Positions 9,964 through 25,168 of a stretch of 64,000 bases of DNA are shown piece after piece. The notes beneath the pieces are model-generated. The model was not told the origin of the DNA. It was given only the letters and a program-made list of their open reading frames with translations, and did no database searches. Made by a program: the position numbers and the translations under genes. The first letter of the stretch is position 1; each line of letters starts with the position of its first letter. This stretch comes from Candidatus Omnitrophota bacterium (GTDB taxonomy: Bacteria; Omnitrophota; Gorgyraeia; 1-14-0-20-64-10): contig JAMWCF010000001.1 of NCBI GenBank assembly GCA_023818695.1, positions 211,306 to 275,305 on the forward strand, read 5' to 3'.

Positions 9964-10325
9964 GTGACTACCGGATTTACCTGTTTTTAGCTCTGTTTAT
10001 GATCGGCGCGCTGGTGGTGCCGGTTCTGCCGATCGCGGTCGCCCGCTTTATCGCCCCCAGAAAACCCGGGTCGATTAAAACGGAGCCGTACGAATGCGGA
10101 ACGGTCACCGAGGGGGACGTTTGGGTCCAGTTCAAGCTGCAGTATTACATCTTCGCGATCCTCTTCGTTGTCTTCGACGTGGAGGCCCTCTTCCTGTTTC
10201 CCTGGGCGGTGGTGTTCAAGGAGGTGGGGCCGGAAGGGTTGATCGCCATGGTGGTTTTTATCGGCATCCTGACTCTAGGACTGATCTATGCATGGCAGGA
10301 GGGGGTCCTGGAATGGGAGACATAA
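9960..10325 (+). CDS. nuoA: NADH:quinone oxidoreductase subunit A
   Basis: 121-aa membrane protein with the EPYECG motif. ATGA overlap with nuoI. Confidence 0.85.
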   Translation: MSDYRIYLFLALFMIGALVVPVLPIAVARFIAPRKPGSIKTEPYECGTVTEGDVWVQFKLQYYIFAILFVVFDVEALFLFPWAVVFKEVGPEGLIAMVVFIGILTLGLIYAWQEGVLEWET

Positions 10326-11434
10326 TGCCCCAGTGGTTCTCGATCGTTCTGCTGGATATCCTCAAGATGGCCCTCATCCTGGCGGTGGTCCCGCCTTGCA
10401 TGATGTACACGACCCAGCTGGAACGCAAGGCGATCGCCCGGATCCAGGACCGGTTTGGTCCGAACCGGGTCGGCCCGTACGGCCTCGCCCAGCCCTTCGC
10501 CGACATGATCAAAATGCTGGTCAAGGAGGACATCGTCCCGAAGGGCTCCGACAAACTATGCCACCTGCTGGCCCCCCTGCTCATTGTCGTTCCGTCCCTT
10601 TTCTTGTTCACCCTGCTGCCGTTCGGACCGGGCTTCATCGCAGCCCCCATCTCAACCGGCCTGCTTTTTTTTATGGCGCTCGGGTCGACGGGAACGCTGG
10701 CGATTTTTACCGCCGGATGGACCTCCCGGTCCGCTTTCCCCCTTTTGGGGGCCATCCGCAACGCCGCCCAGCTGATCGCCTACGAAGTGCCGTTCGTGCT
10801 GGCGTCGGCGGTGATCCCCATGATCGTCGGTTCCCTGCGAATGACCGATATCGTTATGGCCCAGTCGGTTTCCGGCTGGTTCATTTTCACCCCCTGGGGG
10901 TTCACCGCGTTTCTGCTGCTTTTCACCGCGGGCTTAGCGGAAGTCAACAGGACGCCGTTCGATCTGCCGGAAGCGGAGTCGGAGCTTGTGGGCGGTTTCC
11001 ACACCGAGTACAGCGGCATGAAGTTCGGACTTTTCTATCTGGCGGAATACGTCAGCACCATCGCCCTGGCGGTCCTTCTGTCCGTTCTTTTCTTCGGCGG
11101 ATGGGCCGGGCCGAGGATCCCGTTTCTGCCGGCCCTGGGCAGCGCCATCCTCTGGATCAGCATGAAATCGTTTCTCCTCGTTTTCGTGACCATCTGGATT
11201 CGAGGAACATGGCCCCGCTTCCGCGTGGACCGGCTGATGGGCTTCGCCTGGAAGGTCATGATCCCCGTGGCGCTGGCGAATCTTGTGGGCGCGGCGGTCT
11301 GGTTCTATTGCCCCGGTTTTATCGGAACGGCGGTTTCCGCTGTGCTGGTCGTATCTGTTTTCCTGCTGACTAGCCAACTGTGGGCTGCTCCGAAACCGGT
11401 TTTAACCACCACATGGGCGGACCAGACCAGCTAG
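10325..11434 (+). CDS. nuoH: NADH:quinone oxidoreductase subunit H
   Basis: Polytopic membrane protein with RVGPYGLAQPFADMIKMLVKEDIVP. The start at 10325 overlaps the nuoA stop (TAATG). An alternative in-frame ATG lies at 10313. Confidence 0.85.
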   Translation: MPQWFSIVLLDILKMALILAVVPPCMMYTTQLERKAIARIQDRFGPNRVGPYGLAQPFADMIKMLVKEDIVPKGSDKLCHLLAPLLIVVPSLFLFTLLPFGPGFIAAPISTGLLFFMALGSTGTLAIFTAGWTSRSAFPLLGAIRNAAQLIAYEVPFVLASAVIPMIVGSLRMTDIVMAQSVSGWFIFTPWGFTAFLLLFTAGLAEVNRTPFDLPEAESELVGGFHTEYSGMKFGLFYLAEYVSTIALAVLLSVLFFGGWAGPRIPFLPALGSAILWISMKSFLLVFVTIWIRGTWPRFRVDRLMGFAWKVMIPVALANLVGAAVWFYCPGFIGTAVSAVLVVSVFLLTSQLWAAPKPVLTTTWADQTS

Positions 11435-12236: not shown

Positions 12237-13163
12237 ATGACCGATTTCCCGGAGTCCGGAATACGCCTTTCTTTCCCTGACAGGACTGTCACATCCGCCC
12301 AGCTGAAAATGATCGCCCGGCTCGTTACGGAGGAAGCGGGGGACCGGGCCGACATCCACGGCAGCGGGCAGATCGTGATCGACGGCATTCTCCCGTCGAA
12401 GAGGGAGGTTCTCCTGGGGGAATTGGCGGCGGCGGGTGTTCAAACCGCCGGTCCCGCGGGGGTGGAGCCGGCGGATGTCCAGAGGGATACGGCAGGCATA
12501 CGGGAGCAGTCCCATTCGGAGCTGTTTTCTATCGGAATTCCGGTCCCGCTGGCCCGGCTTTCCGGCGCGCAGCTTCGCAAGGCGGCTGACGCGGCGGAGC
12601 GGTACGGTGTCGGCACGATCCGGTTAACGAAGGAGGGGGTTCTGGTTTTTCCGGATGTGTCCAAAGAGAAGGTGGCCAACCTTCTGGAAGGCCTTCAAGG
12701 CGTCGGTCTGGGAGTGGACGTTCCTGCCATTGTGCGGGGGGCCTCTGTCTGCGTCGATACCCCCTTCCAGGGAGGCGTGGTGAATGAAGCCAAGCGTTTC
12801 TTGAAGGGGATCGTCGATCACCTGCAGGCGAGGGTTCCATTGAGCGAGCCGTTTAGCATTCGTTTATGTGCGCATACCCACGATTGCTCGTTCGTGGGTA
12901 CCGCGCATATCGGATTGGCGGCGCGTCGGCCGGAGGGAAGCGCGCAGACCTCCTGGTTGTTCGATCTGACGGCCGGCGGTCGGCCGGTTGCACAGGGGAT
13001 CTCCGGCGCCGAGATCATCGTCCGTCTAGAGCATCTGCTGGCCGGTTACAAGAAGTCCAGGAAACCGGGCGAGGATTTCCATCTGTTCTGCGCGAGGGTT
13101 GGCGAGGAGCATCTCCAAAAGATATCGGAGCTGGCTCACCCAGAACCGGATGCGGTTGCATGA
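12237..13163 (+). CDS. Nitrite/sulfite-reductase-like protein with two ferredoxin-like half-domain repeats; function unknown
   Basis: Two segments resemble NIR_SIR ferredoxin-like half domains (GIRLSFPDRTVTSAQLKMIARL... and RLSGAQLRKAADAAERYGVGTIRLTKEGVLVF). One CxxxxxC (CAHTHDC) is present, but no complete siroheme/4Fe-4S Cys pattern is evident. Confidence 0.4.
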   Translation: MTDFPESGIRLSFPDRTVTSAQLKMIARLVTEEAGDRADIHGSGQIVIDGILPSKREVLLGELAAAGVQTAGPAGVEPADVQRDTAGIREQSHSELFSIGIPVPLARLSGAQLRKAADAAERYGVGTIRLTKEGVLVFPDVSKEKVANLLEGLQGVGLGVDVPAIVRGASVCVDTPFQGGVVNEAKRFLKGIVDHLQARVPLSEPFSIRLCAHTHDCSFVGTAHIGLAARRPEGSAQTSWLFDLTAGGRPVAQGISGAEIIVRLEHLLAGYKKSRKPGEDFHLFCARVGEEHLQKISELAHPEPDAVA

Positions 13164-14284
13164 AGACGATTATTGTCGGAGCCGGGGTCATCGGGCTGGC
13201 GGTCGCGGATGAGCTGTGCCGTCGCGGCGTCGAAGTTGTCGTCCTGGACAAGGCCCCGGGATTTGGTACGGAGGCCTCCGCGGCCGCCGCTGGAATCTTG
13301 TCCCCCCAAGGGGAAGCCAAGGGGCCAGGACCTTTCTTCGATCTTTTGACGGCCGGCTTTCAGCTGATCCCTGAAACCGTCGCTCGTCTTCAGGCCGTGA
13401 CCGGCGTCGATATCGAATACAAGGCTAACGGGATGCTAGGACTGGCCATGTCCGATGATGACGAGAAGGAGTTTGAGTACCAGATGGACTGGCAGAAACA
13501 GATCGGCGTTCGGTTCGAACGCCTGACCCGCGAACAGGTGCGGGATATGGAGCCGGCCGTGGACGGCCCGGTCCGCTGGGGGGTTTGGTGGCCGCAGACA
13601 GCGCAGATGAACAACCGGAAAATGGCGCAGGCCTATGCCCTCGCCGTTGAAGCGCAGGGTGGGACCATCCGACCTTCCGTGGGAGCGATCAGGTTCCTCT
13701 CCCGCGGATCCCGGGTGACAGGGGTGGCCACGGAGCAGGGGTTGGTGGAAGGGGATTGGGTGGTGAACTGCGCCGGGGCCTGGGCCGGTTTTGACGGCTC
13801 CCTGGGGTTCGATCTTCCACTGATTCCGGTCAGGGGGCAGATCATTGAATTTCAAACATCCGTCCCCCTCATCCGGCGGGTCGTGAAAACGCCGGCGTCA
13901 TACCTCGTTCAGCGGTCCAATGAACGGTTGATTGCCGGAACGACGGTGGAGAAGGCGGGATTCGACAAAAGGGTCACCGAGGAAGGGAAAAAACAGATCC
14001 GAAAAGGGGTCATCGAAATGGTTTCACGGGTCGCCTCCCTGCCGGAAAACCAGGCGTGGGCCGGTTTGAGGCCGGGAACGCCGGACGGCCGGCCGATTTT
14101 AGGCCGGACGCCTTTGGACGGCCTGCTGGTCGCTGCGGGGCATTACAGGAACGGTGTTCTCCTGGCGCCGCTGACCGGCCGGCTCATCGCGGATCTGATT
14201 GCAAAAGGAACATGTTCCATTGATTTGATGCCGTTTTCAGCGTCACGGTTTCAAAAACAGGATTCATTGTCAAAAGGAGGGTAA
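13160..14284 (+). CDS. thiO: FAD-dependent oxidoreductase, glycine oxidase ThiO-like
   Basis: ATGA overlap with the upstream gene. Motifs IVGAGVIGLAVADEL (GxGxxG) and C-terminal GHYRNGVLLAPLTG. Confidence 0.6.
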   Translation: MKTIIVGAGVIGLAVADELCRRGVEVVVLDKAPGFGTEASAAAAGILSPQGEAKGPGPFFDLLTAGFQLIPETVARLQAVTGVDIEYKANGMLGLAMSDDDEKEFEYQMDWQKQIGVRFERLTREQVRDMEPAVDGPVRWGVWWPQTAQMNNRKMAQAYALAVEAQGGTIRPSVGAIRFLSRGSRVTGVATEQGLVEGDWVVNCAGAWAGFDGSLGFDLPLIPVRGQIIEFQTSVPLIRRVVKTPASYLVQRSNERLIAGTTVEKAGFDKRVTEEGKKQIRKGVIEMVSRVASLPENQAWAGLRPGTPDGRPILGRTPLDGLLVAAGHYRNGVLLAPLTGRLIADLIAKGTCSIDLMPFSASRFQKQDSLSKGG

Positions 14285-14287
14285 CAC

Positions 14288-14851
14288 ATGGTGACAGTAG
14301 GACAGAAAGTTCCAGATTTCGAGATTCAGGCATATCATGCTGGTGACATCCAATGGATCCGTTCATCCGACTACAGGGGAAAATGGATTGTTCTCATTTT
14401 CTATCCGGCGGATTTCACCTTCGTCTGCCCGACCGAACTGGAGGAGGCCGCGGAACTGTATGAAGAGTTCAAGAAACTCGGCGCTGAGATTTTGAGCGTC
14501 AGCACCGACACGGCTTACGTCCACAAGGCGTGGCACGATCAATCTCCGTCTATCAAGAAGATCAAATTCCCGATGGTGGCCGATCCCACTGGCAATCTGT
14601 GCAGAACGTTCGGCACCTACCTGGAGGACAAGGGCCTCTCCTTGAGAGGGTCCTTCATCATCGATCCGGACGGTGTCCTGAAGACGGTCGAAATTCACGA
14701 CAACTCGATCGGCCGCAGCGGTCAGGAGCTGCTCCGGAAGCTGCAGGCGGCGATCTTCGTCAGGGAAAACCGCGGCGAGGTGTGTCCCGCTAGCTGGCGT
14801 CCGGGCAAGCAGGCCATGAAGCCCAGTCTCGACCAGGTGGGGAAGATATAG
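14288..14851 (+). CDS. Typical 2-Cys peroxiredoxin (AhpC/Prx1 type)
   Basis: Peroxidatic motif FTFVCPTE and resolving motif EVCPASW. Confidence 0.9.
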   Translation: MVTVGQKVPDFEIQAYHAGDIQWIRSSDYRGKWIVLIFYPADFTFVCPTELEEAAELYEEFKKLGAEILSVSTDTAYVHKAWHDQSPSIKKIKFPMVADPTGNLCRTFGTYLEDKGLSLRGSFIIDPDGVLKTVEIHDNSIGRSGQELLRKLQAAIFVRENRGEVCPASWRPGKQAMKPSLDQVGKI

Positions 14852-14854
14852 GAA

Positions 14855-14877
14855 CCGGCCCCGCGCCGGCTCTTTTT
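14855..14877 (+). terminator. Candidate intrinsic terminator after the peroxiredoxin gene
   Basis: 5-bp GC stem (14855-14859 with 14865-14869), then cTCTTTTT. Confidence 0.45.
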
Positions 14878-14935
14878 AGGCAACCTCCGATTTCCTGTGA
14901 TATATACTACAGGGAAAGGAGGTTGCCTCTTTTTT
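14878..14935 (+). promoter_or_regulatory. Extended hairpin and T-run abutting the dsbA-like start codon; a possible promoter lies in the apical loop
   Basis: Perfect 11-bp stem (14878-14888 with 14918-14928), an inner 8-bp stem with one bulge, and T6 at 14930-14935. The ATG is at 14937. The 3' arm contains the GGAGG SD. The loop carries TGaTATATAct (14898-14908). Confidence 0.55.
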
Positions 14936-14936
14936 A

Positions 14937-15605
14937 ATGAAAAACGCGCATAAGCCGGGCGCTTCGGGACTTTATTTCGGAGCTGGTCTCTTCCTGCTCG
15001 GGGCTTTGACCACGTTCATCGTCATCTCCAACAGCAAGATGCCTCCCGAAAAACCGCTCATCACTGCTCCGGCCGTTGCATCCCTCGCCGCCGGGCGAAG
15101 CGCAGGAGACCCCTCGGCCCCGATCCAGATCATCGAGTACAGCAACTTCCACTGCAAGGGCTGCGCTTTCATGCAGCCGTATGTAGAGTCTCTCCTCAAG
15201 GAGCACGGGTCGAAAATCTACTACCAGTACAGGCATTTCTCCCATCCGAGGGACAAAAAGACCTTCCTGGCCCACATGGCGGCCCAGGCCGCCGCTCAGC
15301 AGGGAAAATTCTTCCCATACAAGAAAAAACTGTATGAATCCCAGGAAGAGTGGATGGCGGTCGAGGACCCGATCCCGCTTTTCATGAAGTACGTGGAAGA
15401 ACTTCATTTGGACCGCACTGCTTTCCTCCGGGCCGTGAAGGACAAGGGAACCCAAAAAATCATTCTTGCCGATCTGGAAGAGGCCAGAAAGGTTGGGATC
15501 CGCGTCACCCCCTCGTTCATCATCAACGGCGAGGTCGCGATGGGCGGCAAAGCGTTTAAAGAAAGGATCTCCCAGCTTCTTGGAGAACCAGTTGAAAAAA
15601 ACTGA
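14937..15605 (+). CDS. DsbA-family thiol:disulfide oxidoreductase, membrane-anchored or exported
   Basis: N-terminal hydrophobic segment, CxxC (HCKGC) and a DsbA-like C-terminal motif (RVTPSFIING). Confidence 0.8.
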   Translation: MKNAHKPGASGLYFGAGLFLLGALTTFIVISNSKMPPEKPLITAPAVASLAAGRSAGDPSAPIQIIEYSNFHCKGCAFMQPYVESLLKEHGSKIYYQYRHFSHPRDKKTFLAHMAAQAAAQQGKFFPYKKKLYESQEEWMAVEDPIPLFMKYVEELHLDRTAFLRAVKDKGTQKIILADLEEARKVGIRVTPSFIINGEVAMGGKAFKERISQLLGEPVEKN

Positions 15606-16053
15606 ACCCCTCCTGCTCCTGACAGCGCGGTTCATGATGGGCGGCGTTTTCGCGTACGCCGGTTTCGCCAAACTCCGGGAGCCGCCGGAATGGTTTCTCC
15701 AGGTGCTGGAACAATATGCCCTCATCCCCCACGTCGCGGTGCCGGTTTTGGCCCGAGTTATCCCGTGGCTAGAGTGGTTGCTCGGCGCCATGCTGCTGTC
15801 GGGTTATCTGTGCCGGTTCAGCGCTCTTTCTCTGTCAGTTTTTTCCCTCTTTTCAATCGTCTTGACGGGCTACCAGTTTTTTGCCGGTCAACTGCCGGAG
15901 GAATGCGGTTGTTTTGGGTCAGGCACCATCGAGCTGACGCCGGCCCAATCGATCTCCCTTAACTTGTTCTTGGTTTTCTCCGGTCTTCTTCTCTTCATGA
16001 GGACCAACCACCCTTACTCCCTTGATGCCGTTATTCGGAAAAGAGCCGCGTAA
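15592..16053 (+). CDS. MauE/DoxX-family membrane protein
   Basis: Four hydrophobic segments and the family motif ECGCFGSG. The start is uncertain (TTG 15592 or ATG 15634). The ORF-track start at 15466 lies inside the dsbA-like gene. Confidence 0.65.
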   Translation: MKKTEPLLLLTARFMMGGVFAYAGFAKLREPPEWFLQVLEQYALIPHVAVPVLARVIPWLEWLLGAMLLSGYLCRFSALSLSVFSLFSIVLTGYQFFAGQLPEECGCFGSGTIELTPAQSISLNLFLVFSGLLLFMRTNHPYSLDAVIRKRAA

Positions 16054-18232
16054 TCTCCCGTTCTGGTTGCCGGCCGCCGGCTTCCTGTTTTTGTCCATCC
16101 TTTATTTCTACCGCCATATTTTTCTGGGGATGACCTCTTTTGCCGATGATCTTTCTTATTTTCATTTCTTTGAGAAGTCTTTATACGCGCGGGAGATCCG
16201 TAGCGGGATCGTTCCGCTTTGGAACCCGCACATCTTCGGCGGGACTCCGCACCTGGCGAACGTCAACAACGCATGCTTTTACCCGTTTAACCTGTTTTTT
16301 CTGCTGGGGCCTTTCCACGCCGTCCTGACCCTCTATTTGGCTCTCCATTTGTGCATTGCTGGCTTGTCCGTCTACTTGTGGGGGAGAAAACTCGGTTTCT
16401 CCAGATTTGCTTCCTTCCTCAGCGGCCTCCTATACATGTTCAGCGGCGTTTTTGCGACCGAGAACATCCATCTGGGATACTTCGCAGCGCTGGCCTGGAC
16501 ACCGGCCGTGTTTTACGCCATGGAGATATGGCTGGAAGAGAGGGCAATCCGTCCTGCAATTGCCGTTGGCCTGCTTCTGTCCCTGATCCTGATGAGCGGG
16601 GCCCCGCAATTCCTGCTGATCACCGGCTACTGCCTTGTTTTTTACACCATCTTTCGGTTGATGGAACCAGGACAAGGGGTCCGCGGCCGCATGGATGGAT
16701 TGGCTGTCCTTATCGTCGGCGCGGGGCTTGGTCTGATGGCGGCTGCGGTCCAGCTGCTTCCTGCCATGGAATTCATAAAAGATGGCGGCCGCCCCTATGC
16801 GACCGATTACCAGTTTGCCGTCTCTTTCTCTTCTTATTGGAAACAGCTCCTTTCCAGGCCGTTCGCGCCGGTCGGCCATGGGTGGACCGGCGCGGCCGCT
16901 CTGTTTTTCGCCGCGTGGGCCCTGCTTTTCATGCGCAGCCGGGCGGTGGCGACCCTGTTTCTGCTGGCATTGGCAACCGCTCTTTTGAGTCTGGGCGACG
17001 ACGGCTTTTTGTTTAAAGTGGCTCACCGTTTTCTGCCTGGATTTCAGCTTTTCAGGGCACCGTACCGGTTTGCCCTCTACGCTGTCCTTTTCATCGTCCT
17101 GATGTCTGGGGCCGGGATTGACTCCGTTATCCGCTCTTCCGTCTCACGCTGGCGGCGTTTCGGCCTCAGTTTCATCGCGCTGTTCCTTGGATGGGGCATC
17201 TGGAGCTGCTTTCATGCGGAGGGAAGCATTGAAAGACTCTGGAAATCGACGGCGTGGCTGTTGCTGATCTATGGGCTGGTCCGGCTCTTCCTGAAAGCGC
17301 AGATTCGGGAGGCCCTTTTCAAGGCGGGACTCTGTCTCTTCCTCCTTCTGGAGGTGACGCAGGAGTTGACAACCCTGGGCGGCGTCCACCCTTTGACCAA
17401 GCCCTCTTTCTACCGCTTCCTCCAGGAACAGCCGATTTTTGACGAGCTAAAAAAACAGGAAGAAACGCACCGAATCTATCTCTCGAACGACGATGGAATA
17501 GCATGCCTGGAATATCCCCTCAAGGACGGTCGTTATTTCCCCTTCAGCCCGAATCTAGGGGAGCTGTATGGATTTGAAAACGTCAGTGGCTACGAACAGA
17601 TGATGCTTCGGCGCTACATCCGTTTCATCCAGGAAACACCCCCTTACTGGAGCATGGCCCTCTTCAACGTCCGGTATCTCTTGACACGGGGTGATCTAAG
17701 CGGTCTGCCCGGTCTGAAGCTTGTCCTGGCGGTTCCTGCTGGCCGGCTGTACAGGATGGAATGGACAATTCCGAGATATTTTATGGCTGCCAGTGCCAGG
17801 TTCACCGACCGGCCGGAGAATTTTTTTGAATCGGTCCGCGACCCGGCGTTTAATCCTTACACACAGCTCATCCTGGAGGGAGATCCGCCCGCCGTCACAG
17901 GACAGCCACCTCTTCGGAGCTACGAGATCAACGTTTTGAAACGAACCTCTCGCGATCAGCTTCTGGAAGTCAAGCTTGATGGTCACGGCTACCTGGTTTG
18001 CAGCGAGCCATACGAGAAGGGATGGAAAGCGTTCATCGACGACCAGCCGGCCTCGCTGTGGCCGGCATTCCACTTGCTCCGGGCGGTTTACCTTCCGCCC
18101 GGAAAGCACCTGGTCCGCTTTTACTATGATCCGCCCTCTTTCAACCTGGGCCTGGGGATCAGTCTCATCTCCTTCGCGGTGATCCTGGCAATCTCTCTCT
18201 TGAGTCGGCGGAGGCAGCGCAGCGCAGCTTGA
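16025..18232 (+). CDS. YfhO-family polytopic membrane protein (putative glycosyltransferase)
   Basis: About 735 aa. The N-terminal region LPAAGFLFLSILYFYRHIF...PLWNPHIFGGTPHLAN is typical of YfhO. It has many TM segments and a C-terminal TM anchor. Confidence 0.7.
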   Translation: MPLFGKEPRNLPFWLPAAGFLFLSILYFYRHIFLGMTSFADDLSYFHFFEKSLYAREIRSGIVPLWNPHIFGGTPHLANVNNACFYPFNLFFLLGPFHAVLTLYLALHLCIAGLSVYLWGRKLGFSRFASFLSGLLYMFSGVFATENIHLGYFAALAWTPAVFYAMEIWLEERAIRPAIAVGLLLSLILMSGAPQFLLITGYCLVFYTIFRLMEPGQGVRGRMDGLAVLIVGAGLGLMAAAVQLLPAMEFIKDGGRPYATDYQFAVSFSSYWKQLLSRPFAPVGHGWTGAAALFFAAWALLFMRSRAVATLFLLALATALLSLGDDGFLFKVAHRFLPGFQLFRAPYRFALYAVLFIVLMSGAGIDSVIRSSVSRWRRFGLSFIALFLGWGIWSCFHAEGSIERLWKSTAWLLLIYGLVRLFLKAQIREALFKAGLCLFLLLEVTQELTTLGGVHPLTKPSFYRFLQEQPIFDELKKQEETHRIYLSNDDGIACLEYPLKDGRYFPFSPNLGELYGFENVSGYEQMMLRRYIRFIQETPPYWSMALFNVRYLLTRGDLSGLPGLKLVLAVPAGRLYRMEWTIPRYFMAASARFTDRPENFFESVRDPAFNPYTQLILEGDPPAVTGQPPLRSYEINVLKRTSRDQLLEVKLDGHGYLVCSEPYEKGWKAFIDDQPASLWPAFHLLRAVYLPPGKHLVRFYYDPPSFNLGLGISLISFAVILAISLLSRRRQRSAA

Positions 18233-19059
18233 AAGAGGCCCAGTTTGATCTCCACGCGGCAATAGAAGAAAAACATTGGTGGTTTCTGGGACGGCGGGAG
18301 ATCGTTCGCCGGATTGTGGAGAGCCTGCCTCCGGAAACCGCTGCCTGGCCGGTTGTGGACATCGGTTGCGGGACTGGCGCCAACATCGCCTCTTTTGCAA
18401 AAGGGCGGCGAGGTATCGGGATCGACAGCTCGCCGGAAGCGATCCAAAGGGCCTCGGCAAGGTTTCCGCAGATCCGGTTCCTCTGCGAGCGGCCGCAGGA
18501 GGCCATCCGGAGACTTGACCGGGAACCGGCCGTCTTCCTCCTGATGGATGTCATCGAACATGTGGAGGACGATTTCATGTTCCTATCGGAACTGCTGGCG
18601 CTCATGGAACCCGGGAGCCGCCTGGTGATCACGACCCCGGCGAATCCGGCCCTCTGGAGTGAACACGATGTGAGCTTCGGTCATTACCGCCGATATACCC
18701 CGCCGCGGCTGCGGATGATCTGGGAGGGACTGCCTGTCTCGGTCGAGCTGTTCTCCCATTTCAACACGTACCTCTATCCGGTCGCCACAGCGTTCCGTTT
18801 CATGAGCCGGATTAGAAAACGGCCCAGCGGCAAAGCAGGAACCGACTTCTGGGTCCCGGCCAGGCCGGTCAACCTGCTCCTGAAAACGGTCATGGCATCG
18901 GAAGCGGGATTTCTTCTCCGCCGGCTCCGCAAGGGAACCGGCGACGGCTTCCGGTTCGGGGTCAGTCTGATCGCCGTCCTGAAGCGGAACGAGGGGTCGG
19001 TGCCGGTAAGAGCCAAACCGGCCGGCCTGCCTCCGGACCCCCACAACCCTCGCAAATAG
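18229..19059 (+). CDS. Class I SAM-dependent methyltransferase
   Basis: TTG start overlapping the yfhO-like stop. Motifs HWWFLGRR and VVDIGCGTGAN. Confidence 0.75.
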   Translation: MKEAQFDLHAAIEEKHWWFLGRREIVRRIVESLPPETAAWPVVDIGCGTGANIASFAKGRRGIGIDSSPEAIQRASARFPQIRFLCERPQEAIRRLDREPAVFLLMDVIEHVEDDFMFLSELLALMEPGSRLVITTPANPALWSEHDVSFGHYRRYTPPRLRMIWEGLPVSVELFSHFNTYLYPVATAFRFMSRIRKRPSGKAGTDFWVPARPVNLLLKTVMASEAGFLLRRLRKGTGDGFRFGVSLIAVLKRNEGSVPVRAKPAGLPPDPHNPRK

Positions 19060-19148
19060 AAGGGGGGCTCAAGGTTCAACTGCCGATATAATGGAAGAAT
19101 GGAAGCGCTGACCGGGTGGGCATGAACAGATCCAAAACAGGGGGCAGC

Positions 19149-19679
19149 ATGATGTCAAATCAGCAAGAAGCCGCGGCGATCTACCAGATTCTGGAGCAGG
19201 CGAAAGAGCGGGTTATCATCACCAATAAGGGGGGGATGATCGTGTACGTGAATCCCGCTTTCGAGCGGATCACCGGATATTCCAAAGAGGAAGTGATCGG
19301 CAAAATGACCCCCAGAATCTTGAAATCCGGCCAGTACGACAGCCAATTCTACTCGATGTTATGGAAGACACTGCTATCGGGTAAGTCCTTCCACGCGAGG
19401 TTCCTCAACAAAAAGAAAGATGGTTCCCTGTATTACGAAGAACAGAGCATCAGCCCCGTCAAGAACCAGAAAGGGGAGATAACCCACTTCGTGTCCACTG
19501 CGGAAGACCTCACTCCTCTGCTTTCGGAACAGGACGCGAAAAAGCTCGCCCAGGAAAGCTACCAGTACCTCAAGGAGGTGAGCATGGAGCGGGAGGCCCG
19601 GATCAGCGAATTGAAGCTGGAAGTGAACAACCTTTTAAAGCGGCTCGGTGAAACACCGAAATACGTTATTCCGGAGTGA
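19149..19679 (+). CDS. Stand-alone PAS sensor protein with a C-terminal coiled-coil tail
   Basis: PAS S-box (YVNPAFERITGYSKEEVIGK...KKDGSLYYEEQSISPV). The ATG at 19149 is preceded by SD caggggg. Alternative upstream starts lie at 19116 and 19122. Confidence 0.8.
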   Translation: MMSNQQEAAAIYQILEQAKERVIITNKGGMIVYVNPAFERITGYSKEEVIGKMTPRILKSGQYDSQFYSMLWKTLLSGKSFHARFLNKKKDGSLYYEEQSISPVKNQKGEITHFVSTAEDLTPLLSEQDAKKLAQESYQYLKEVSMEREARISELKLEVNNLLKRLGETPKYVIPE

Positions 19680-21451
19680 TGATGAATAAAAATGCGTCGG
19701 TCGAAAAGTGGGTGGAGGAGACGGCCCGGCTCACGCGGCCCGACCGCATTGTCTGGCTAACCGGTTCGGACGCGGAGTATGAGCAGCTGCTGGCCGAGGG
19801 GGTTCGCCTAAACCAGCTCATCCCGCTTGATTCGGCGAAACATCCGGGTTCCTACCTGCACCGGTCACACCCGGAAGATGTTGCCCGAACTGAACAGAAC
19901 ACCTACATTTGCACCCCGGTCAGGGGGGACGCGGGTCCCACCAACAACTGGATGGATCCCGCGGAGGCGTATGATAAGCTTCGGCGGCTTTTCTCCGGGG
20001 TCATGAAGGGCAGGACCATGTACGTGATTCCCCACTTGTTGGGACCACCCGGGTCTCCATTCAGCAAGGTGGGCGTAGAATTGACCGACAGCGTCTACGT
20101 GGCCATCAACATGCAGATCATGACCCGCCTGGGCACCGTCGCCCTGGAACATCTGGGAGATTCACACTCGTTTCTGAAAGGGCTTCATTCCTGCGGCACC
20201 CTGGACCCTCGGCAGCGCTACATCTGCCACTTTCCTCAGGATCTGACCGTCTGGAGCATCAACTCCGGCTATGGCGGCAACGCACTTTTAAGCAAGAAGT
20301 GCTTCGCCCTGCGGATCGCGAGCTGGCTTGGGAGACAAGAGGGATGGCTGGCCGAGCACATGTTCATTACCGGAATCGAAGACCCGAAGGGACAAGTGAC
20401 CTATATCGCGGGGGCTTTTCCGTCCGCCTGCGGCAAGACGAACCTAGCGATGCTGCGCCCCACCGGCGCCTACAGCGGCTATAAAATTTGGTGCGTCGGC
20501 GATGACATCGCCTGGCTTCGCGTCGGGATTGACGGCCGGCTCTATGCGACAAACCCGGAAGCCGGGTTTTTCGGCGTGGCCCCCGGGACAAGCCCCCAGA
20601 CCAACCCAAATATGATGGCGGCGATCGCCAAGAACACGATCTTCACCAATGTTGCCCTGGCTCCGGATCGCACGGTTTGGTGGGAAGGGCTTGACCTTCC
20701 GGCCGACATAAAGGGATTCCTGGACTGGCAGGGAAGGCCCTGGAGTCCAAACAGCGGCCAGAAGGCGGCCCACCCGAATTCCCGGTTCACGACGCCGATC
20801 AAGCAATCTCCGGTCTTCACGCCGAAGTGGAACAGCCCGGAAGGGGTCCCGATCTCCGCGATCCTCTTCGGTGCTAGACGGTCCACGCTTGTGCCGCTGG
20901 TCTGCGAGGCGTTTAACTGGCAGCATGGAGTCTATCTGGGCGCCACGATGAGTTCCGAGACGACTTCCGCCGCGGCCGGCGCCACCGGTGTCCTGCGGCA
21001 GGATCCCATGGCGATGCTGCCTTTCTGCGGCTATAACATGGCCGACTACTTCGGGCACTGGCTGAAGATCGGCAGGCGGCTCAAAGCGCCGCCGAAGATT
21101 TTTCGGGTTAACTGGTTCCGGCGGGATGCGCACGGCAGGTTCCTCTGGCCCGGTTTCGGGGACAACATGAGGGTGCTCAAGTGGATCATCGACCGGTGCT
21201 ACGGGACGGCTGGCGCGCAGGAGACTCCGATCGGGTATCTGCCGTCCATCAATTCATTGGATACAGATGGATTGAATCTTTCCGGGCAGGGAATGGAGGA
21301 GCTGCTTGCTGTGGACCGAGAGTCATGGTTTAAGGAGGCACGCCGACAGACCGAGTTCTTCGGAAAATTCGGCACGAGGATGCCGGCCGAACTGCTGCTG
21401 GAGCAGCAAATGCTGATCGATCGGTTAAGTGTGCAGGCGCAACGAACATGA
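19679..21451 (+). CDS. pckG: Phosphoenolpyruvate carboxykinase (GTP)
   Basis: About 590 aa with the GTP-PEPCK kinase motif FPSACGKTNLAML. Start codons are clustered (GTG 19676, ATG 19679, ATG 19682) and overlap the PAS gene stop. Confidence 0.9.
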   Translation: MMNKNASVEKWVEETARLTRPDRIVWLTGSDAEYEQLLAEGVRLNQLIPLDSAKHPGSYLHRSHPEDVARTEQNTYICTPVRGDAGPTNNWMDPAEAYDKLRRLFSGVMKGRTMYVIPHLLGPPGSPFSKVGVELTDSVYVAINMQIMTRLGTVALEHLGDSHSFLKGLHSCGTLDPRQRYICHFPQDLTVWSINSGYGGNALLSKKCFALRIASWLGRQEGWLAEHMFITGIEDPKGQVTYIAGAFPSACGKTNLAMLRPTGAYSGYKIWCVGDDIAWLRVGIDGRLYATNPEAGFFGVAPGTSPQTNPNMMAAIAKNTIFTNVALAPDRTVWWEGLDLPADIKGFLDWQGRPWSPNSGQKAAHPNSRFTTPIKQSPVFTPKWNSPEGVPISAILFGARRSTLVPLVCEAFNWQHGVYLGATMSSETTSAAAGATGVLRQDPMAMLPFCGYNMADYFGHWLKIGRRLKAPPKIFRVNWFRRDAHGRFLWPGFGDNMRVLKWIIDRCYGTAGAQETPIGYLPSINSLDTDGLNLSGQGMEELLAVDRESWFKEARRQTEFFGKFGTRMPAELLLEQQMLIDRLSVQAQRT

Positions 21452-21771
21452 AGAGGAGGAACCAGATGGACCATTTGGGGAGGAAAGCTGTCGTGGGACT
21501 GTTTGTCGGGGTTGCCGTTTTACTGACCTCGGCTAGCGCCTGGGGAAAGCAAACGCAGGACACGAAACCAAAGATCGCGGCCTATCGCCACGCCGCCAAT
21601 GAGGCGAGGGTGAAGGCCGTTTTTCACCAGACGCAGGCGAAAAATTCCAAGGATCAGACGAGAAGGCAAAGGCGGACGCTCCGCTACCACCTGAACCAAG
21701 CCGATTACTATCGGAAGCTTGCCGATAAGCTCGAATTGGCCGCCAACAATCTTGAGAGAGTTTCGAGATGA
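21448..21771 (+). CDS. Small hypothetical exported protein
   Basis: ATGA overlap with pckG. Signal-like segment AVVGLFVGVAVLLTSASAWG followed by a basic helical region. No family recognised. Confidence 0.45.
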   Translation: MKRRNQMDHLGRKAVVGLFVGVAVLLTSASAWGKQTQDTKPKIAAYRHAANEARVKAVFHQTQAKNSKDQTRRQRRTLRYHLNQADYYRKLADKLELAANNLERVSR

Positions 21772-21900
21772 GACCGGGAGTTGCTGTTCCCCGGTTTGAT
21801 CGCCAGAAACGATGGGAGGGGTATCTGCCTGCGGGCTGATCGCTCGCAGAAAAAACCATCGCCGGGTCAGACGCCGAAAGAGATGAGGTAACGACCAGTT

Positions 21901-22545
21901 TTGACGAAGAAATTTCTGGTTGCGGTCGCTGTCTGTGTGATCCTGTACGTTGCCGCGGCCATCCTACTGGGTCCTCCTGGCCGTCCGGAACATCATTTTC
22001 ATCACGAACAGGGGTACGTGACGGTGCTGTCGGCCCTTTTATTGGCAATGGCTTCGGGTTTTGCCGGCGCCTCTTTTCTGCTGGAACAAAATCCCACCGG
22101 GCGGTCACGTCTTTTCTGGTCGCTGGCCTTCCTCTCCTTTCTGTACCTCTCCTTTGATGAGCTGCTGGAATTCCATGAAAGGATGGGGGAATTGATCTTG
22201 GGAAGCGTCGTTGGCCCCGTCCCCCTTTTCCGGAACTGGAATGATGTCATCGTCATTGGATACGGCATGATGGCCTTCCTTACTTTTCTCTATTTCCTCC
22301 CAGTCATTCGGGCGTATCCGGGTTTCGAGAAACGGATTGCGCTGGCCGCCGGTTTCTACGTCCTCCATACGCTCATCGATTCGACTCAACAGAGAACGAG
22401 TTTGTCGATTATTCTGGAAGAGTCGGCCAAGCTCTTCTGTTCGGCCTTTGCCGCGTCAGCGATGCTCTTCGGGATGGCCGCGTGCTGGAGGGAAGGGCGA
22501 CCCCCCGGCGAAGGTCGGTTGCAGCGATCGCAAGGACCTGGTTGA
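21901..22545 (+). CDS. Hypothetical polytopic membrane protein
   Basis: TTG start. About 6 hydrophobic segments and the motif FDELLEFHERMGE. No family recognised. Confidence 0.5.
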   Translation: MTKKFLVAVAVCVILYVAAAILLGPPGRPEHHFHHEQGYVTVLSALLLAMASGFAGASFLLEQNPTGRSRLFWSLAFLSFLYLSFDELLEFHERMGELILGSVVGPVPLFRNWNDVIVIGYGMMAFLTFLYFLPVIRAYPGFEKRIALAAGFYVLHTLIDSTQQRTSLSIILEESAKLFCSAFAASAMLFGMAACWREGRPPGEGRLQRSQGPG

Positions 22546-23594
22546 TGAGGCGGCTGGCTTTTCTTCTGGCTGTCGTGGCGGGAATGACGTGCTCTTCCGG
22601 CTTCGGGATCGCCGCGGAGGATGCCATTCCTTTCACGATCGCCGACATGGTCGGGCCGGTCAATCTCAGCGATGAGGCCCTTTGGCTCTTTGTGGTTCCT
22701 GACGGGAGAGATTCGCCAGTCTTGTCCATCGAGCGGCGTCAAGAGCTGCTCGCCGGCCGCCTCGATGTACGCCGGCCAAACCTTCCAGTCGAATGGCGGA
22801 CGATTCTCACGGGCAGGGAATTGGGCACTTCAGGGATAGCTGACCACTGGCACATTTTCGCGCACGGGGCTCATTGGATTGTCGTGTCGACCCCCGCCGG
22901 CAGTTTCCTGCTGAAACTGGACCCGGATTTTCGTCGGCTTGGGCTCTTCCGCGTTGCGCCGGAAGGTGATCGTGGGTCGGGTGGTGTGGTGACAAATGAC
23001 ATGTTTTTGGTCGCTGAACTGAAGGGTGTGGCGGTCGGCCATTTTCTGCCGGGGTTTGGACACCGTATTTATCGATTCGGCATGGATGGCACCTCGGGCG
23101 ATCCTATCGACTTCGGCGGTGGCTTATACCGGCATGCCAACGGCGCCTCGGCGGAACGTGTCCCGGCTGGGTTCCTCGTTTTTGCGCCGATGAGCCTCAA
23201 TCCGCTCATGCGGAGCTCAATCCGATTGATCCGGACCGATGAAAACTGGCGGCCAAACCGCGTGGTAGAGGCCATTGCGGAGGATGGCATGAACATCGTA
23301 ATGCCAAGCAGCGTCACTCTCCCATCGGGCTACCGGATCGTCCACGCGCGTGTCCGTGTTGTGGGCAACGGGGAAAATGAACCCGGCCCTGGTCATGGCC
23401 AGAGGCATTCGGACGACGGGATGATTGTCCGCTACGTGCTCGACCCCAATTTCACGGTTGTCTCCCGACAGGTTATTGTGTCCCATTCGGGGAACCGTCC
23501 TCACACAGCCCTCTTCGGCAACCTGCTGCTGACCTCCTGGGACGGCGACGGTGTCTGGCTTCGCGTGGATCGGCTGTCGGGTGAAGTTCATTAA
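22545..23594 (+). CDS. Hypothetical exported protein
   Basis: The ATG overlaps the upstream stop (TGATG). Signal peptide [21 protein letters not shown]. The remainder looks beta-rich. No family recognised. Confidence 0.55.
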
Positions 23595-23626
23595 GACCGC
23601 CTGCGGAACTATGGGAGGGGGAAGAG

Positions 23627-24670
23627 ATGGTGAGTAGAAGTGTGAGGGACGGTATGCAGCTGGTGTTTGAACTTTTGCCGGATGCGGTCATTTTGGTTGA
23701 CCGCCAGGGCCGTATCGTCCAAGTCAACGCGCAGACCGAAGTGCTGTTCGGCTGCGCGCCAGGGGAATTGCTGAACCAGTCTGTCGAGATGTTGATCCCG
23801 GAGCGCTTTCGTCAGCAGCATGCGAAAGATCGCCAGGGTTACGTCTTGCAGCCGACCAAGCGGTTGATGGGTCAGCGGGACAGGGAATTATGGGGCAGAC
23901 GGAAGGACGGCGGCGAATTTCTAGCGGATGTCGCCATCGGTCCCCTTTTTCTTGAAGAAATGGAGAAGGAACCGCTTATCTTGGCGATCATACGGGATAT
24001 CACAGAGTATGGTAGGCGAAGAGATCAGCGCGTCTTTGCGGAACGTGCAATCACGCGCCTTCTCATCGAATCCGATAGCTTTGACGGGGCGATTCCGGGT
24101 GTCCTTCGGGAAGTCTGCCAGGTTCTCGACTGGGACGTGGGGGCGATTTGGCTCGTTGATGAGGCGGCAAATGTGCTGCGATGTGCCGGGTTCTGGCATT
24201 CGCCTGCCGTTACCGTTGCCGAGTTTGAAGATATCTCCCGCAGGATTACCTTCAATCCGGGAATTGGATTGCCCGGACGAGTCTGGAGCAGTCGCCAACC
24301 GGCTTGGATTCAAAACGTGGTTTTGGACAGCAACTTTCCCCGTGCTCCGTTTGCAGCGAAAGATGGGTTGCATGGGGCGTTCGGATTTCCAATCCTGATT
24401 CAAGATCATGTCTTTGGAGTTATGGAGTTTTTCAGCCGAGAGATTCGAAAACCTGATGAGGTGCTGCTCCAGATGTTCGGAGCTGTCGGTAACCAGATCG
24501 GCTTGTTTGTGCAGCGCAAGCTGGCCGAAGAGGCTGCCGAACGTGAAAGAAAAGAGCTAAAGAGGATGAACGACTTGATGATGGGAAGGGAGGAGCGGAT
24601 ACTTGAGCTTAAGAATGAGGTCAACAATCTACTCAAGGAGATGGGCAAGCCGCTAAAATACCAGGTCTAA
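23627..24670 (+). CDS. PAS-GAF sensor protein with a C-terminal coiled-coil tail and no output domain
   Basis: Strong SD (gggagggggaagag). PAS segment ([24 protein letters not shown]), GAF segment ([21 protein letters not shown]...GLPGRVW) and tail [25 protein letters not shown]. Confidence 0.8.
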
Positions 24671-24826
24671 AATGACATCATGCCTGCCATGATGCTATAA
24701 GTCACGCCGCATGATTCCTTCGCCAGCAGGATGGGAAGTGGCGGATGTGCACCGATTTTTCATGGATCCGCGGAGGGGCCGTAAATAATGCCCTGGAGCC
24801 GCGCTTCGGGTAATCGGAGGGAATGA

Positions 24827-25168
24827 GTGAAGACGATCGTTTTACTGCTGTTTTCAAACATTTTTATGACGTGGGCATGGTATGGGCATCTCAAGACGCT
24901 GCCCAACAAGCCTCTTGTGGTCGCCATTTTTGCCAGCTGGACCATCGCATTTTTTGAATACTGCTTTCAGGTTCCTGCCAACCGGTTTGGGTATGGCCTA
25001 TTCTCGCTTCAGCAGCTCAAAGTTCTTCAGGAGATCATTACGATGGTCGTTTTTGCCGCTTTTTCCGTCTGCTATATGGGCGAGCGTTTGACATGGGATT
25101 TCCTATGGGCGGGGCTGTGTCTCTCCGCCGCCGCTTTCTTCATGTTTCGCGGTTTTTCGGGAATCTAG
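24827..25168 (+). CDS. DMT-superfamily small membrane protein (DUF486-like)
   Basis: GTG start with SD ggaggga. The N-terminus MKTIVLLLFSNIFMTWAWYGHLK is typical of DUF486. Confidence 0.65.
   Translation: MKTIVLLLFSNIFMTWAWYGHLKTLPNKPLVVAIFASWTIAFFEYCFQVPANRFGYGLFSLQQLKVLQEIITMVVFAAFSVCYMGERLTWDFLWAGLCLSAAAFFMFRGFSGI

What the first reader, a model, noticed from the sequence alone, without database searches (positions are those of the whole stretch)
19149..24670. Two output-less PAS/GAF sensor proteins share a conserved C-terminal peptide and bracket PEPCK plus three unknown exported/membrane proteins
The PAS protein ends with MEREARISELKLEVNNLLKRLGETPKYVIPE (nt 19584-19676). The PAS-GAF protein ends with [30 protein letters not shown] (nt 24578-24667). 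By my count, 18 of about 29 aligned residues are identical, although the rest of the two proteins differ.

Neither protein has a kinase, cyclase, DNA-binding or other output domain. The shared tail, RE(E/A)RIxELKxEVNNLLKxxGxxxKY, could be a docking or oligomerisation helix for a common partner.

The PAS gene stop overlaps the pckG start codons, which suggests coupling to central carbon metabolism. I cannot name this motif from memory.
Basis: seen in the sequence. Interest (0 to 1): 0.6.

Follow-up and report, generated by a model that had tools for sequence, protein, structure and literature searches.

The report
Conserved terminal helix on sensor proteins
Two small sensor proteins in this window end in the same ~40-residue helix, which is a widespread conserved module absent from the family libraries searched; it sits where a kinase or other output domain would normally begin and probably couples stand-alone sensors to separate histidine kinases.

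Summary
The PAS protein (19116-19679) and the PAS-GAF protein (23627-24670) share 18 of 27 tail residues but only 60% of the bases, so this is old, selected similarity. Neither gene is truncated: orthologues stop at the same place.

A tail profile finds 6,656 protein clusters among 1.84 billion representatives, in more than 15 phyla including an archaeon. About 85-95% of copies are C-terminal. They follow PAS, REC, HAMP, GAF, PocR, Cache or CHASE domains. Pfam, NCBIfam, PDB and text searches return nothing for the tail.

AlphaFold2 models it as one continuous helix running on from the sensor domain. The PAS "DIT" aspartate lies exactly 28 residues (4 heptads) before the invariant arginine in 105 of 124 cases.

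In 80 genomes the next gene is usually on the same strand and often overlaps. It is a histidine kinase in 37 of 63 cases. That gene often carries a second unannotated helix motif (SRRALLSxxED) whose subtype covaries with the tail subtype. Fused versions exist.

I infer a trans-coupling helix for accessory sensors. The link to PEPCK and the "bracketing" of three unknown genes are not conserved. No kinase lies in this window, so the local partner is unknown.

The parts
19116..19679 (+). Gene for a 187-aa (176 aa from the ATG at 19149) flavin-type PAS protein with the C-terminal module and no output domain.
   Evidence: ORF. Pfam finds PAS only. The closest solved sequences are MmoS 3ewk (E = 1e-25) and the NifL FAD-PAS 2gj3. 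The AlphaFold2 model has pLDDT 96.
19182..19508 (+). PAS core of the first protein. It is NifL/MmoS/LOV-like and lacks the LOV cysteine.
   Evidence: Pfam PAS covers residues 23-131. NCBIfam gives NifL, YtvA and DibA partial matches. Foldseek matches short LOV proteins and NifL PAS1.
19545..19670 (+). C-terminal module, copy 1: ...YQYLKEVSMEREARISELKLEVNNLLKRLGETPKY. It is part of one continuous helix (nt 19512-19643) followed by a short non-helical tail.
   Evidence: Local HMM of the tail scores 68.6 bits. AlphaFold2 helix spans residues 122-165, then coil. The distance from the 'DLT' Asp to the invariant Arg is 28 residues (direct count; family statistic).
23627..24670 (+). Gene for a 347-aa PAS-GAF protein with the C-terminal module and no output domain.
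   Evidence: ORF. Pfam finds PAS and GAF only. It is 100% identical to a 'Candidatus Omnitrophica bacterium' MAG protein. AlphaFold2 pLDDT is 93.6.
23654..24001 (+). PAS domain of the second protein.
   Evidence: Pfam PAS covers residues 10-125.
24077..24511 (+). GAF domain of the second protein.
   Evidence: Pfam GAF_2 covers residues 151-295.
24539..24667 (+). C-terminal module, copy 2: [43 protein letters not shown].
   Evidence: Local HMM scores 75.4 bits. The AlphaFold2 helix spans residues 278-338 and runs on from the last GAF helix. Orthologues P0002, P0003, P0004, P0006 and P0017, and the PAS-only homologues P0056, P0083 and P0094, end the same way.
19676..21451 (+). pckG (GTP-dependent PEPCK). 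Its start overlaps the PAS stop. The adjacency is not conserved, so I judge it not part of the system.
   Evidence: Pfam PEPCK_N and PEPCK_GTP. Overlap seen in the sequence. PEPCK is absent downstream of four PAS orthologues.
21448..23594 (+). Three ORFs of unknown function (107 aa with a signal-peptide-like N-terminus; 214 aa, multi-TM; 370 aa with a hydrophobic N-terminus). They are not conserved next to either sensor gene elsewhere.
   Evidence: No Pfam or NCBIfam match. No tblastn match in 87 related loci.
24827..25168 (+). DMT_6 (DUF486) small membrane protein. It is the only neighbour conserved with the PAS-GAF-module gene, in one other genome.
   Evidence: Pfam DMT_6, E = 7e-44. Same arrangement in L001, with 70% identity.

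Best explanation
The shared tail is a real, widespread module that none of the family libraries searched annotates. It is about 40 residues long, with consensus L..ELER(F/W/M)(N)..M.GREER(I/V)LELK.EVN.LL.ELG(R)PP.Y.

Shown:
- It terminates sensor-only proteins, or sensor units inside larger proteins.
- It is modelled as one continuous alpha-helix running on from the last helix of the PAS or GAF domain.
- It is locked in heptad phase with that domain.

Inferred:
- The helix forms a dimeric coiled coil whose conformation is set by the sensor domain.
- Its second seam docks on a partner, most probably a separately encoded histidine kinase. This would let a stand-alone sensor add an input to that kinase in trans.
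- A candidate docking site is the co-occurring kinase helix 'SRRALLSxxEDxxxA'. Together the two could form a HAMP-like four-helix junction, either in trans (split genes) or in cis (fused proteins and the module-PocR-motif2 cassette).

In this window the flavin-type PAS protein (probably a redox sensor) and the PAS-GAF protein are orphan members of this class. Their partner is not encoded within the 64 kb. The overlap with pckG is best read as local operon packing, not a functional link.
For: Family size and position:
- 6,656 clusters at E<=1e-3, and 204 at E<=1e-10.
- 136 of 163 copies lie within 15 residues of the C-terminus. In genome loci, 102 of 108 lie within 36 residues of the stop.

Domain context:
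- Upstream domains are sensors or receivers only: PAS in 70 of 95 proteins, REC 14, HAMP 11, GAF 7, then PocR, Cache and CHASE.

Helix properties:
- Invariant positions are R18, K26 and N30; E19, R21, E28, L32 and Y42 are kept in 90% or more of copies.
- Continuous helix at pLDDT about 96 in both AlphaFold2 models.
- PAS 'DIT' Asp to R18 is exactly 28 residues in 105 of 124 cases, and a multiple of 7 in 115 of 124. Where a canonical ERT signalling helix precedes the module, its Arg lies 21 residues before R18 in 6 of 17 cases, and a multiple of 7 in 11 of 17.

Genome context (80 loci, more than 15 phyla):
- The downstream gene is on the same strand in 79 of 89 cases, with a gap under 50 nt or an overlap in 59 of 89.
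- 37 of 63 non-module downstream genes are HisKA plus HATPase kinases.
- Examples: Lamprocystis purpurea DSM 4197 has dCache-PAS-module followed by 5TMR_LYT-PAS-GAF-PAS-HK-REC. Colwellia sp. has ETR1_N-module followed by an HK.

Fusions:
- Module, then linker or PocR, then HisKA-HATPase-REC-Hpt, in L042, L050 and L078.

Motif 2:
- Present in the first downstream gene in 24 of 65 cases, against 8 of 447 other genes (Fisher 2e-17).
- 11 of 17 internal modules are followed by motif 2, at 203-226 residues with PocR in between (7 cases) or at 20-47 residues (3 cases).
- Module subtype covaries with motif-2 subtype (Fisher 1e-7).
Against: - No kinase, receiver or motif 2 lies anywhere in this window, or next to the closest orthologues.
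- Co-occurrence and covariation of the module and motif 2 could reflect shared descent of one operon family rather than contact. The statistics are not phylogenetically corrected.
- In P0188, motif 2, an ERT helix and the module lie on what looks like one uninterrupted helix. So motif 2 may simply be the entry element, and the module the exit element, of one kind of coiled coil.
- The structure models are monomers. No oligomer or complex could be predicted here.
- About 40% of downstream neighbours are not kinases.
Confidence: 0.5

Rival explanations
1. The module is only a homodimerisation cap. It closes and stabilises the coiled coil of sensor-only proteins and has no partner of its own. These proteins would then act through their PAS or GAF domains, by heterodimerising with other PAS proteins or buffering a ligand.
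For: It is a continuous helix with a clean a/d heptad pattern. Short LOV proteins, which are Jalpha coiled-coil dimers without an effector domain, are the closest structures. No kinase lies near the window genes.
Against: Sequence conservation is far stronger than dimerisation needs: invariant or near-invariant R18, E19, R21, K26, E28, N30 and Y42 across more than 15 phyla. There is a conserved second seam outside the a/d core. R21 (g position) and K26 (e position) would repel each other in a simple parallel homodimer. The adjacency to kinase genes and to motif 2 is tight.
Confidence: 0.22
2. The tails mediate hetero-oligomerisation among module-bearing paralogues themselves, so that several sensors assemble into mixed coiled coils.
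For: Module genes cluster. There are two within 5 kb here, two adjacent in L002/L003, two in L001, and tandem arrays of 3 to 6 or more in L037, L046, L065, L069, L074 and L075.
Against: Clustering is also expected from tandem duplication. The arrays still end in a kinase gene with motif 2 (L046, L074, L075). No test of pairing specificity was possible.
Confidence: 0.15
3. The two proteins are local regulators of PEPCK and of the enclosed membrane or exported proteins, tying a redox or ligand signal to central carbon metabolism.
For: The PAS stop overlaps the pckG start. All genes from 16022 to 25168 are on the same strand, with short gaps.
Against: PEPCK is absent downstream of all four PAS orthologues examined, whose neighbours are pirin, another module gene or an antitoxin-like gene. 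None of PEPCK, the three unknown genes, the methyltransferase or YfhO recurs in 87 related loci.
Confidence: 0.05
4. The genes are kinases truncated by frameshift or misassembly, and the motif is a generic linker upstream of kinase domains.
For: The motif does occur inside a few giant hybrid kinases.
Against: Orthologues from independent assemblies stop 2-3 residues after the conserved Tyr. Three in-frame stops follow the PAS gene and a complete pckG follows directly. No kinase-like sequence occurs in any frame of the window. 85-95% of copies are C-terminal. Profile-profile comparison with canonical ERT linkers gives no similarity: hhalign probability 1.3%.
Confidence: 0.02
5. The helix binds nucleic acid in the manner of a bZIP.
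For: Sub-threshold Pfam bZIP_2 matches on two isolated tails, E = 0.13 and 5.6.
Against: There is no basic region. The segment is net acidic or balanced, and the matches are far below the Pfam cut-off. The conserved polar residues flank the hydrophobic face instead of forming a basic surface.
Confidence: 0.02

Closest known systems
Signalling helix (S-helix) of Anantharaman, Balaji and Aravind 2006 (PMC1592074)
   Same: It is about 40 residues, or five heptads. It follows PAS, GAF, HAMP, PocR and REC domains. [quoted passage not shown] It stays in heptad register with upstream helices.
   Different: The signature is (G/D)RE rather than ERT. hhalign finds no profile similarity, with probability 1.3%. 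[quoted passage not shown] It has its own cap, LG(R)PP.Y. In some proteins a canonical ERT helix directly precedes it, so it is an additional element and not a substitute.
Short LOV proteins (PpSB1-LOV, PpSB2-LOV, PF5-LOV, SBW25-LOV) and their Jalpha coiled coil
   Same: They are the best structural matches to the PAS protein model (Foldseek E about 1e-12, TM 0.6-0.7). They are flavin-PAS cores with a C-terminal helix and no effector domain. By published structures the helix forms the dimer coiled coil.
   Different: There is no sequence similarity in the helix: the PDB searches with the tail profile are empty. The window PAS lacks the LOV cysteine and is closer to the NifL/MmoS FAD-PAS. The module is not restricted to LOV or PAS, and it is linked to kinase operons.
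MopJ, the single-domain PAS protein of Caulobacter (PMC4432633)
   Same: It is a sensor-only PAS protein that acts in trans on a histidine kinase. By the paper's abstract, MopJ interacts with DivJ.
   Different: No homology with the tail was tested or claimed. MopJ is the precedent for the mode of action only.
HAMP domain (from established knowledge; Pfam PF00672)
   Same: The proposed working analogy is two amphipathic helices joined by a flexible connector. They would form a four-helix junction in the dimer that relays conformational signals to a kinase.
   Different: The module does not match the Pfam HAMP model. Here the two helices (module and motif 2) are usually on different polypeptides, or are separated by a PocR domain. 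The four-helix junction is a hypothesis and has not been observed.

Membership tests
S-helix (signalling helix) | Conserved 'ERT' signature at positions c, d and e of the central heptad | tested here: not met
   The central heptad reads (G/D/N)-R-E. The Arg at 'd' is kept, but Glu replaces Thr and there is no Glu at 'c'. hhalign of the module profile against 20 ERT helices gives probability 1.3%.
S-helix (signalling helix) | About 40 residues or 5 heptads of parallel coiled coil downstream of sensor domains | tested here: inconclusive
   The heptad pattern L1, L8, M15, R18, I22, L25, V29, L32, L36 and the upstream PAS, GAF, HAMP and REC domains fit. The helix is continuous in the AlphaFold2 monomer models. 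Parallel dimer geometry could not be tested.
S-helix (signalling helix) | Lies between two signalling domains, typically sensor then catalytic output | tested here: not met
   136 of 163 copies and 102 of 108 copies lie at the C-terminus with nothing downstream. Internal copies are followed by a flexible linker.
Histidine kinase DHp (HisKA) | H-box with a phospho-acceptor His; match to Pfam HisKA | tested here: not met
   There is no conserved His: position 27 is variable (Q, R, K or E commonest), and N or L in the window. No HisKA match on tails even at E<=10.
HAMP | Match to Pfam HAMP; two helices plus a connector within one roughly 50-residue unit | tested here: not met
   No HAMP match on either window protein or on isolated tails. 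The models show a single continuous helix.
LOV photoreceptor (short LOV) | Flavin-binding PAS with the conserved adduct-forming Cys (GxNCRFLQ) | tested here: not met
   The window sequence at that site is GKMTPRILKSG, with no Cys. The best sequence matches are the FAD-PAS domains of MmoS and NifL. The fold match to short LOV proteins is good.
NifL/MmoS-type FAD-binding PAS (redox sensor) | Sequence and fold similarity to NifL PAS1 and MmoS PAS-A; flavin binding | tested here: inconclusive
   Similarity is met: 3ewk E = 1e-25, 2gj3 E = 9e-16, Foldseek TM 0.9 on the target. Cofactor binding cannot be tested here.

The most novel reading that the evidence does not exclude
The C-terminal module and the 'SRRALLSxxED' helix are a cognate pair of docking helices. 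They would assemble a HAMP-like four-helix junction between separately encoded 'plug-in' sensor subunits and histidine kinases. The same junction would form in cis around PocR domains. If so, this is a widespread, previously undescribed way of building modular, multi-input two-component sensors from split genes, found in bacteria and in some archaea.
Probability: 0.3. Interest if true: 0.8.

Novelty: new variant of a known kind. Interest (0 to 1): 0.62.

Why it matters
Sensor proteins without an output domain are common in genomes and are usually left unexplained. This work gives thousands of them a shared, recognisable output element. It also gives a concrete, testable partner class: the adjacent histidine kinases and a second conserved helix.

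If the docking model holds, it explains how bacteria add extra inputs to a kinase without fusing domains. It would let annotation pair accessory sensors with their kinases. It would also offer a small portable helix pair for engineering split or multi-input sensor kinases.

For this window specifically, the result removes a tempting but unsupported link between PAS sensing and PEPCK.

Tried and rejected
- **Word-indexed search with the tail alone.** It found no candidate, because the query was too short.
- **Pfam and NCBIfam on the whole proteins, and Pfam on ten isolated tails at E<=10.** Only noise matches appeared: ZSWIM1-3_C, bZIP_2 and GAAD, all far below their cut-offs.
- **PDB sequence search with two tail profiles.** Nothing below E = 0.2.
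- **Literature string searches for both motifs.** No relevant paper.
- **Helical hairpin (pseudo-DHp) idea.** Rejected, because AlphaFold2 gives one uninterrupted helix even through the Gly.
- **'Kinase-less decoy paralogue' idea.** Rejected, because most module proteins show no BLAST similarity to their downstream kinase.
- **Membership of the canonical S-helix family.** Rejected by hhalign.
- **Search for a kinase, receiver or motif 2 in the window.** tblastn, phmmer with 605 locus proteins and the motif-2 HMM found none. The only other signalling genes are two GGDEF proteins at 37.5-40.1 kb.
- **Promoter and terminator scan of 15.7-25.7 kb.** It gave no more sites than shuffled sequence, so operon boundaries stay undefined.
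- **Conserved non-signalling neighbour across the 80 loci.** None recurs in more than 4 loci.

Full report
**1. The observation**

The region holds a same-strand run of genes:
- YfhO-like membrane protein (16022-18232)
- class-I methyltransferase (18229-19059)
- PAS protein (19116-19679)
- GTP-dependent PEPCK (19676-21451)
- three ORFs without any Pfam or NCBIfam match (21448-21771, 21901-22545, 22482-23594)
- PAS-GAF protein (23627-24670)
- DMT_6/DUF486 protein (24827-25168)

The two sensor proteins have no recognised output domain. Their tails align at 18/32 identities (E = 3e-7 for the pair), whereas their PAS cores are only 22% identical. Over the 27-residue core, 18 residues are identical, only 8 of those share a codon, and DNA identity is 60%. 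The similarity is therefore old and maintained at the protein level. No third copy exists in any frame of the window.

The PAS stop (TGA, 19677-19679, followed by two more in-frame TGA codons) overlaps the GTG/ATG/ATG start cluster of pckG. Every factual element of the finding is confirmed.

**2. The genes are complete**

The PAS-GAF protein is 100% identical to a protein of a 'Candidatus Omnitrophica bacterium' MAG on a 697-kb contig. Its orthologues at 51-66% identity (P0002, P0003, P0004, P0006, P0017), and the PAS-only homologues P0056, P0083 and P0094, all end in M.GREER(V/I)LELK..(V/I)N.LLKELGRPP.Y plus one or two residues. The PAS protein's orthologues (P0271-P0274, 52-63% identity) do the same. 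Truncation by frameshift or misassembly is excluded.

**3. A large family that the libraries searched do not annotate**

A 44-column profile of ten tails was searched exhaustively against 1.84 billion representative proteins. It found 6,656 clusters at E<=1e-3 and 204 at E<=1e-10.

*Position.* Among the best 150 proteins, 136 of 163 module copies lie within 15 residues of the C-terminus. In 80 genome loci, 102 of 108 copies lie within 36 residues of the stop.

*Upstream domains.* In 95 of these proteins the domains N-terminal to the module are PAS (70), REC (14), HAMP (11), GAF (7), PocR, Cache, CHASE and CHASE4. No catalytic output appears among the frequent families.

*Taxonomy.* The genome scan covers Pseudomonadota, Verrucomicrobiota, Planctomycetota, Lentisphaerota, Bacteroidota, Ignavibacteria, Chloroflexota, Omnitrophota, Nitrospinota, Acidobacteriota, Actinomycetota, Armatimonadota, Margulisiibacteriota, Cloacimonadota, Leptospirales and a Methanosarcinales archaeon. 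Cultured strains include Lamprocystis purpurea DSM 4197 and Colwellia sp. C1TZA3.

*Databases.* Pfam and NCBIfam on the whole proteins, Pfam on isolated tails, PDB sequence searches with two profiles and exact-string literature searches all return nothing.

**4. Anatomy**

The consensus is L..ELER(F/W/M)N..M.GREER(I/V)LELK.EVN.LL.ELGRPP.Y. R18, K26 and N30 are invariant. E19, R21, E28, L32, G37 and Y42 are kept in about 80-99% of copies.

AlphaFold2 models both window proteins with high confidence (pLDDT 96 and 93.6). In each, the module is one continuous helix running on from the last element of the PAS or GAF domain: residues 122-165 of 176, and 278-338 of 347. A 9-11-residue non-helical tail carrying the conserved Tyr follows.

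[quoted passage not shown] A second seam at positions b and e (M16, E19, L23, K26, N30, L33) carries most of the other invariant residues. The least conserved positions (20, 27, 31, 34) lie on the opposite face. This reading is my inference.

The module is phase-locked to the sensor. The Asp of the PAS 'DIT' motif lies exactly 28 residues before R18 in 105 of 124 cases, and a multiple of 7 before it in 115 of 124. This holds for the window PAS protein by direct count. Where a canonical ERT signalling helix precedes the module, its Arg is most often 21 residues before R18.

**5. Relation to the S-helix**

The S-helix is defined as roughly five heptads with an 'ERT' signature at c, d and e of the central heptad. 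The Arg sits at 'd', and the helix lies 'almost always between two signalling domains' (PMC1592074).

The module shares the design: five heptads, a central 'd' Arg, and the same upstream domains. It fails the defining features. The signature is (G/D)RE, the position is terminal, and there is no profile similarity (hhalign probability 1.3%). It can also follow a true ERT helix in the same chain. It works like a signalling coiled coil but is not a member of that family.

**6. Genomic and architectural context**

*Neighbouring genes.* Across the 80 loci, the gene downstream of a module gene is on the same strand in 79 of 89 cases, and within 50 nt or overlapping in 59 of 89. Of 63 downstream genes that lack a module, 37 are HisKA plus HATPase_c kinases, often with PAS, REC and Hpt domains. 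Most begin with transmembrane or signal sequences.

*Examples.*
- Lamprocystis purpurea: dCache-PAS-module, then 5TMR_LYT-PAS-GAF-PAS-HisKA-HATPase-REC.
- Pontiellaceae B12227: two module genes, then a PAS-HisKA-HATPase-REC kinase with a hydrophobic N-terminus.
- Colwellia: a 184-aa ETR1_N-module protein, then a separate HisKA-HATPase kinase.

*Fused forms.* In L042, L050 and L078 the module lies inside giant hybrid kinases. It is followed by a linker, or by PocR or NMT1 sensor domains, before the kinase core. In multi-copy proteins, sensor-module units are concatenated.

*Other points.* Module proteins are usually not paralogues of their downstream kinase. No non-signalling neighbour recurs in more than 4 loci. 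Module genes also cluster with each other: two in this window, two in L001, two in L002/L003, and arrays of 3 to 6 or more in L037, L046, L065, L069, L074 and L075.

**7. A second motif**

The downstream kinases often carry another unannotated helix, SRRALLS(L/I/V)(L/M/V)ED...A, placed after the membrane or PocR sensor and before PAS or S-helix elements.

- With a local HMM it is present in the first non-module downstream gene in 24 of 65 cases, against 8 of 447 other genes (Fisher 2e-17).
- It is absent from all of the PAS and PAS-GAF homologues retrieved, many of which are kinases.
- Eleven of 17 internal modules are followed by it, at 203-226 residues with a PocR domain between (7 cases) or at 20-47 residues (3 cases).
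- Module subtype covaries with motif-2 subtype. W at position 11 goes with 'EDQ/EDE', and F/M-N goes with 'MEDA/L'. That is 37 of 41 concordant pairs (Fisher 1e-7), and both subtypes occur in Verrucomicrobiota.

These statistics are not corrected for shared ancestry. In P0188, motif 2, an ERT helix and the module lie in a single helical stretch. Direct contact is therefore a hypothesis and not a result.

**8. Interpretation**

*Shown.* There is a widespread terminal helix module, not annotated in the libraries searched, that is phase-locked to sensor domains. It is carried by sensor-only proteins that are typically co-encoded with, and sometimes fused to, histidine kinases.

*Inferred.* The sensor domain sets the conformation of a dimeric coiled coil. 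The conserved second seam and the Tyr-bearing tip contact a partner, most plausibly the kinase. Motif 2 is the candidate site, giving a four-helix junction analogous to HAMP.

*Precedent.* MopJ, a single-domain PAS protein that interacts with the DivJ kinase, is a precedent for sensor-only PAS proteins acting on kinases in trans (PMC4432633).

*Rivals.* The alternatives are a pure dimerisation cap and hetero-oligomerisation among paralogues. Neither is excluded.

**9. What this means for the window**

The PAS core is closest to the FAD-binding PAS domains of MmoS (3ewk, E = 1e-25) and NifL (2gj3). In fold it is closest to short LOV proteins, but it lacks the LOV cysteine. A flavin-based redox sensor is likely, though untested.

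Neighbours with redox functions recur: pirin next to orthologues in L002/L003 and L085, and DAO and DsbA-like genes upstream both here and in L002.

PEPCK is not downstream of any of four orthologues. None of PEPCK, the three unknown ORFs, the methyltransferase or YfhO occurs in any of 87 related loci. Only DMT_6 is conserved next to the PAS-GAF orthologue, in one genome.

The window contains no kinase, receiver or motif 2. The only other signalling genes are two GGDEF proteins at 37.5-40.1 kb. The two proteins are therefore orphan members of the class, and their partner is unknown.

**10. Verdict**

The 'docking or oligomerisation helix' reading is supported as the leading hypothesis. The metabolic-coupling and bracketing readings are not supported.

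The element is best classed as a new variant of a known kind, a signalling coiled coil. It has a distinct signature, a terminal position and a characteristic genomic association.

I cannot exclude that it has been described somewhere outside the libraries searched.

Noticed in passing
proteins P0042, P0044, P0046, P0047, P0049, P0051 and others: Many ~489-aa PAS-GAF homologues of the window protein end in a different conserved Cys-rich tail, LLPICA.CKK(I/V)RDD.G.W..IE.Y...RS.A.FTHGICP.C..K. This is another small C-terminal element in place of a catalytic output.
   Followed up: no
window 6896-11434: One 812-aa ORF fuses the NADH-dehydrogenase 20-kDa, 30-kDa and 49-kDa subunits (NuoB-C-D). A 4Fe-4S protein and a NuoH-like gene follow it.
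   Followed up: no
window 37455-40135: Two tandem diguanylate cyclases, GAF-GGDEF and GGDEF. They are the only other signalling genes in the window. No histidine kinase or receiver was found in the 64 kb.
   Followed up: partly
window 19677-19685: The PAS gene ends in three consecutive in-frame TGA codons. These overlap the GTG/ATG/ATG start cluster of pckG.
   Followed up: yes
L070 5578-7632 (Colwellia sp. C1TZA3): A 184-aa protein made of an ethylene-receptor-like ETR1_N membrane domain plus the module. A separate HisKA-HATPase kinase gene follows 27 nt later. It looks like a split ethylene-receptor-type kinase.
   Followed up: partly
L065, L067, L069, L072, L073, L080, L081, L084 (Omnitrophota): A variant of the module, [23 protein letters not shown](R/K). 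It keeps the GREER.LELK core but lacks N30 and the PP.Y tail.
   Followed up: no
L074 3600-12117 (Margulisiibacteriota MAG): A tandem array of at least six module-bearing genes, several of them ~260 aa with hydrophobic N-termini. It ends in a gene with motif 2 and the start of a HisKA domain.
   Followed up: partly
P0126, P0130, P0157, P0188, P0232, L066, L078: A recurrent cassette of module, then a PocR domain, then motif 2. The spacing from module to motif 2 is tight, at 203-226 residues.
   Followed up: partly
L002/L003 7042-7997; L085 1424-1606; window 12866-15602: Pirin genes flank PAS-module orthologues in two lineages. DAO and DsbA-like genes lie upstream both in the window and in L002. 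This partial synteny of redox genes fits a flavin-PAS redox sensor.
   Followed up: partly
window 24827-25168 and L001 9146-9493: A DMT_6 (DUF486) small membrane-protein gene directly follows the PAS-GAF-module gene in both genomes, at 70% protein identity. It is the only conserved neighbour of either window sensor.
   Followed up: partly
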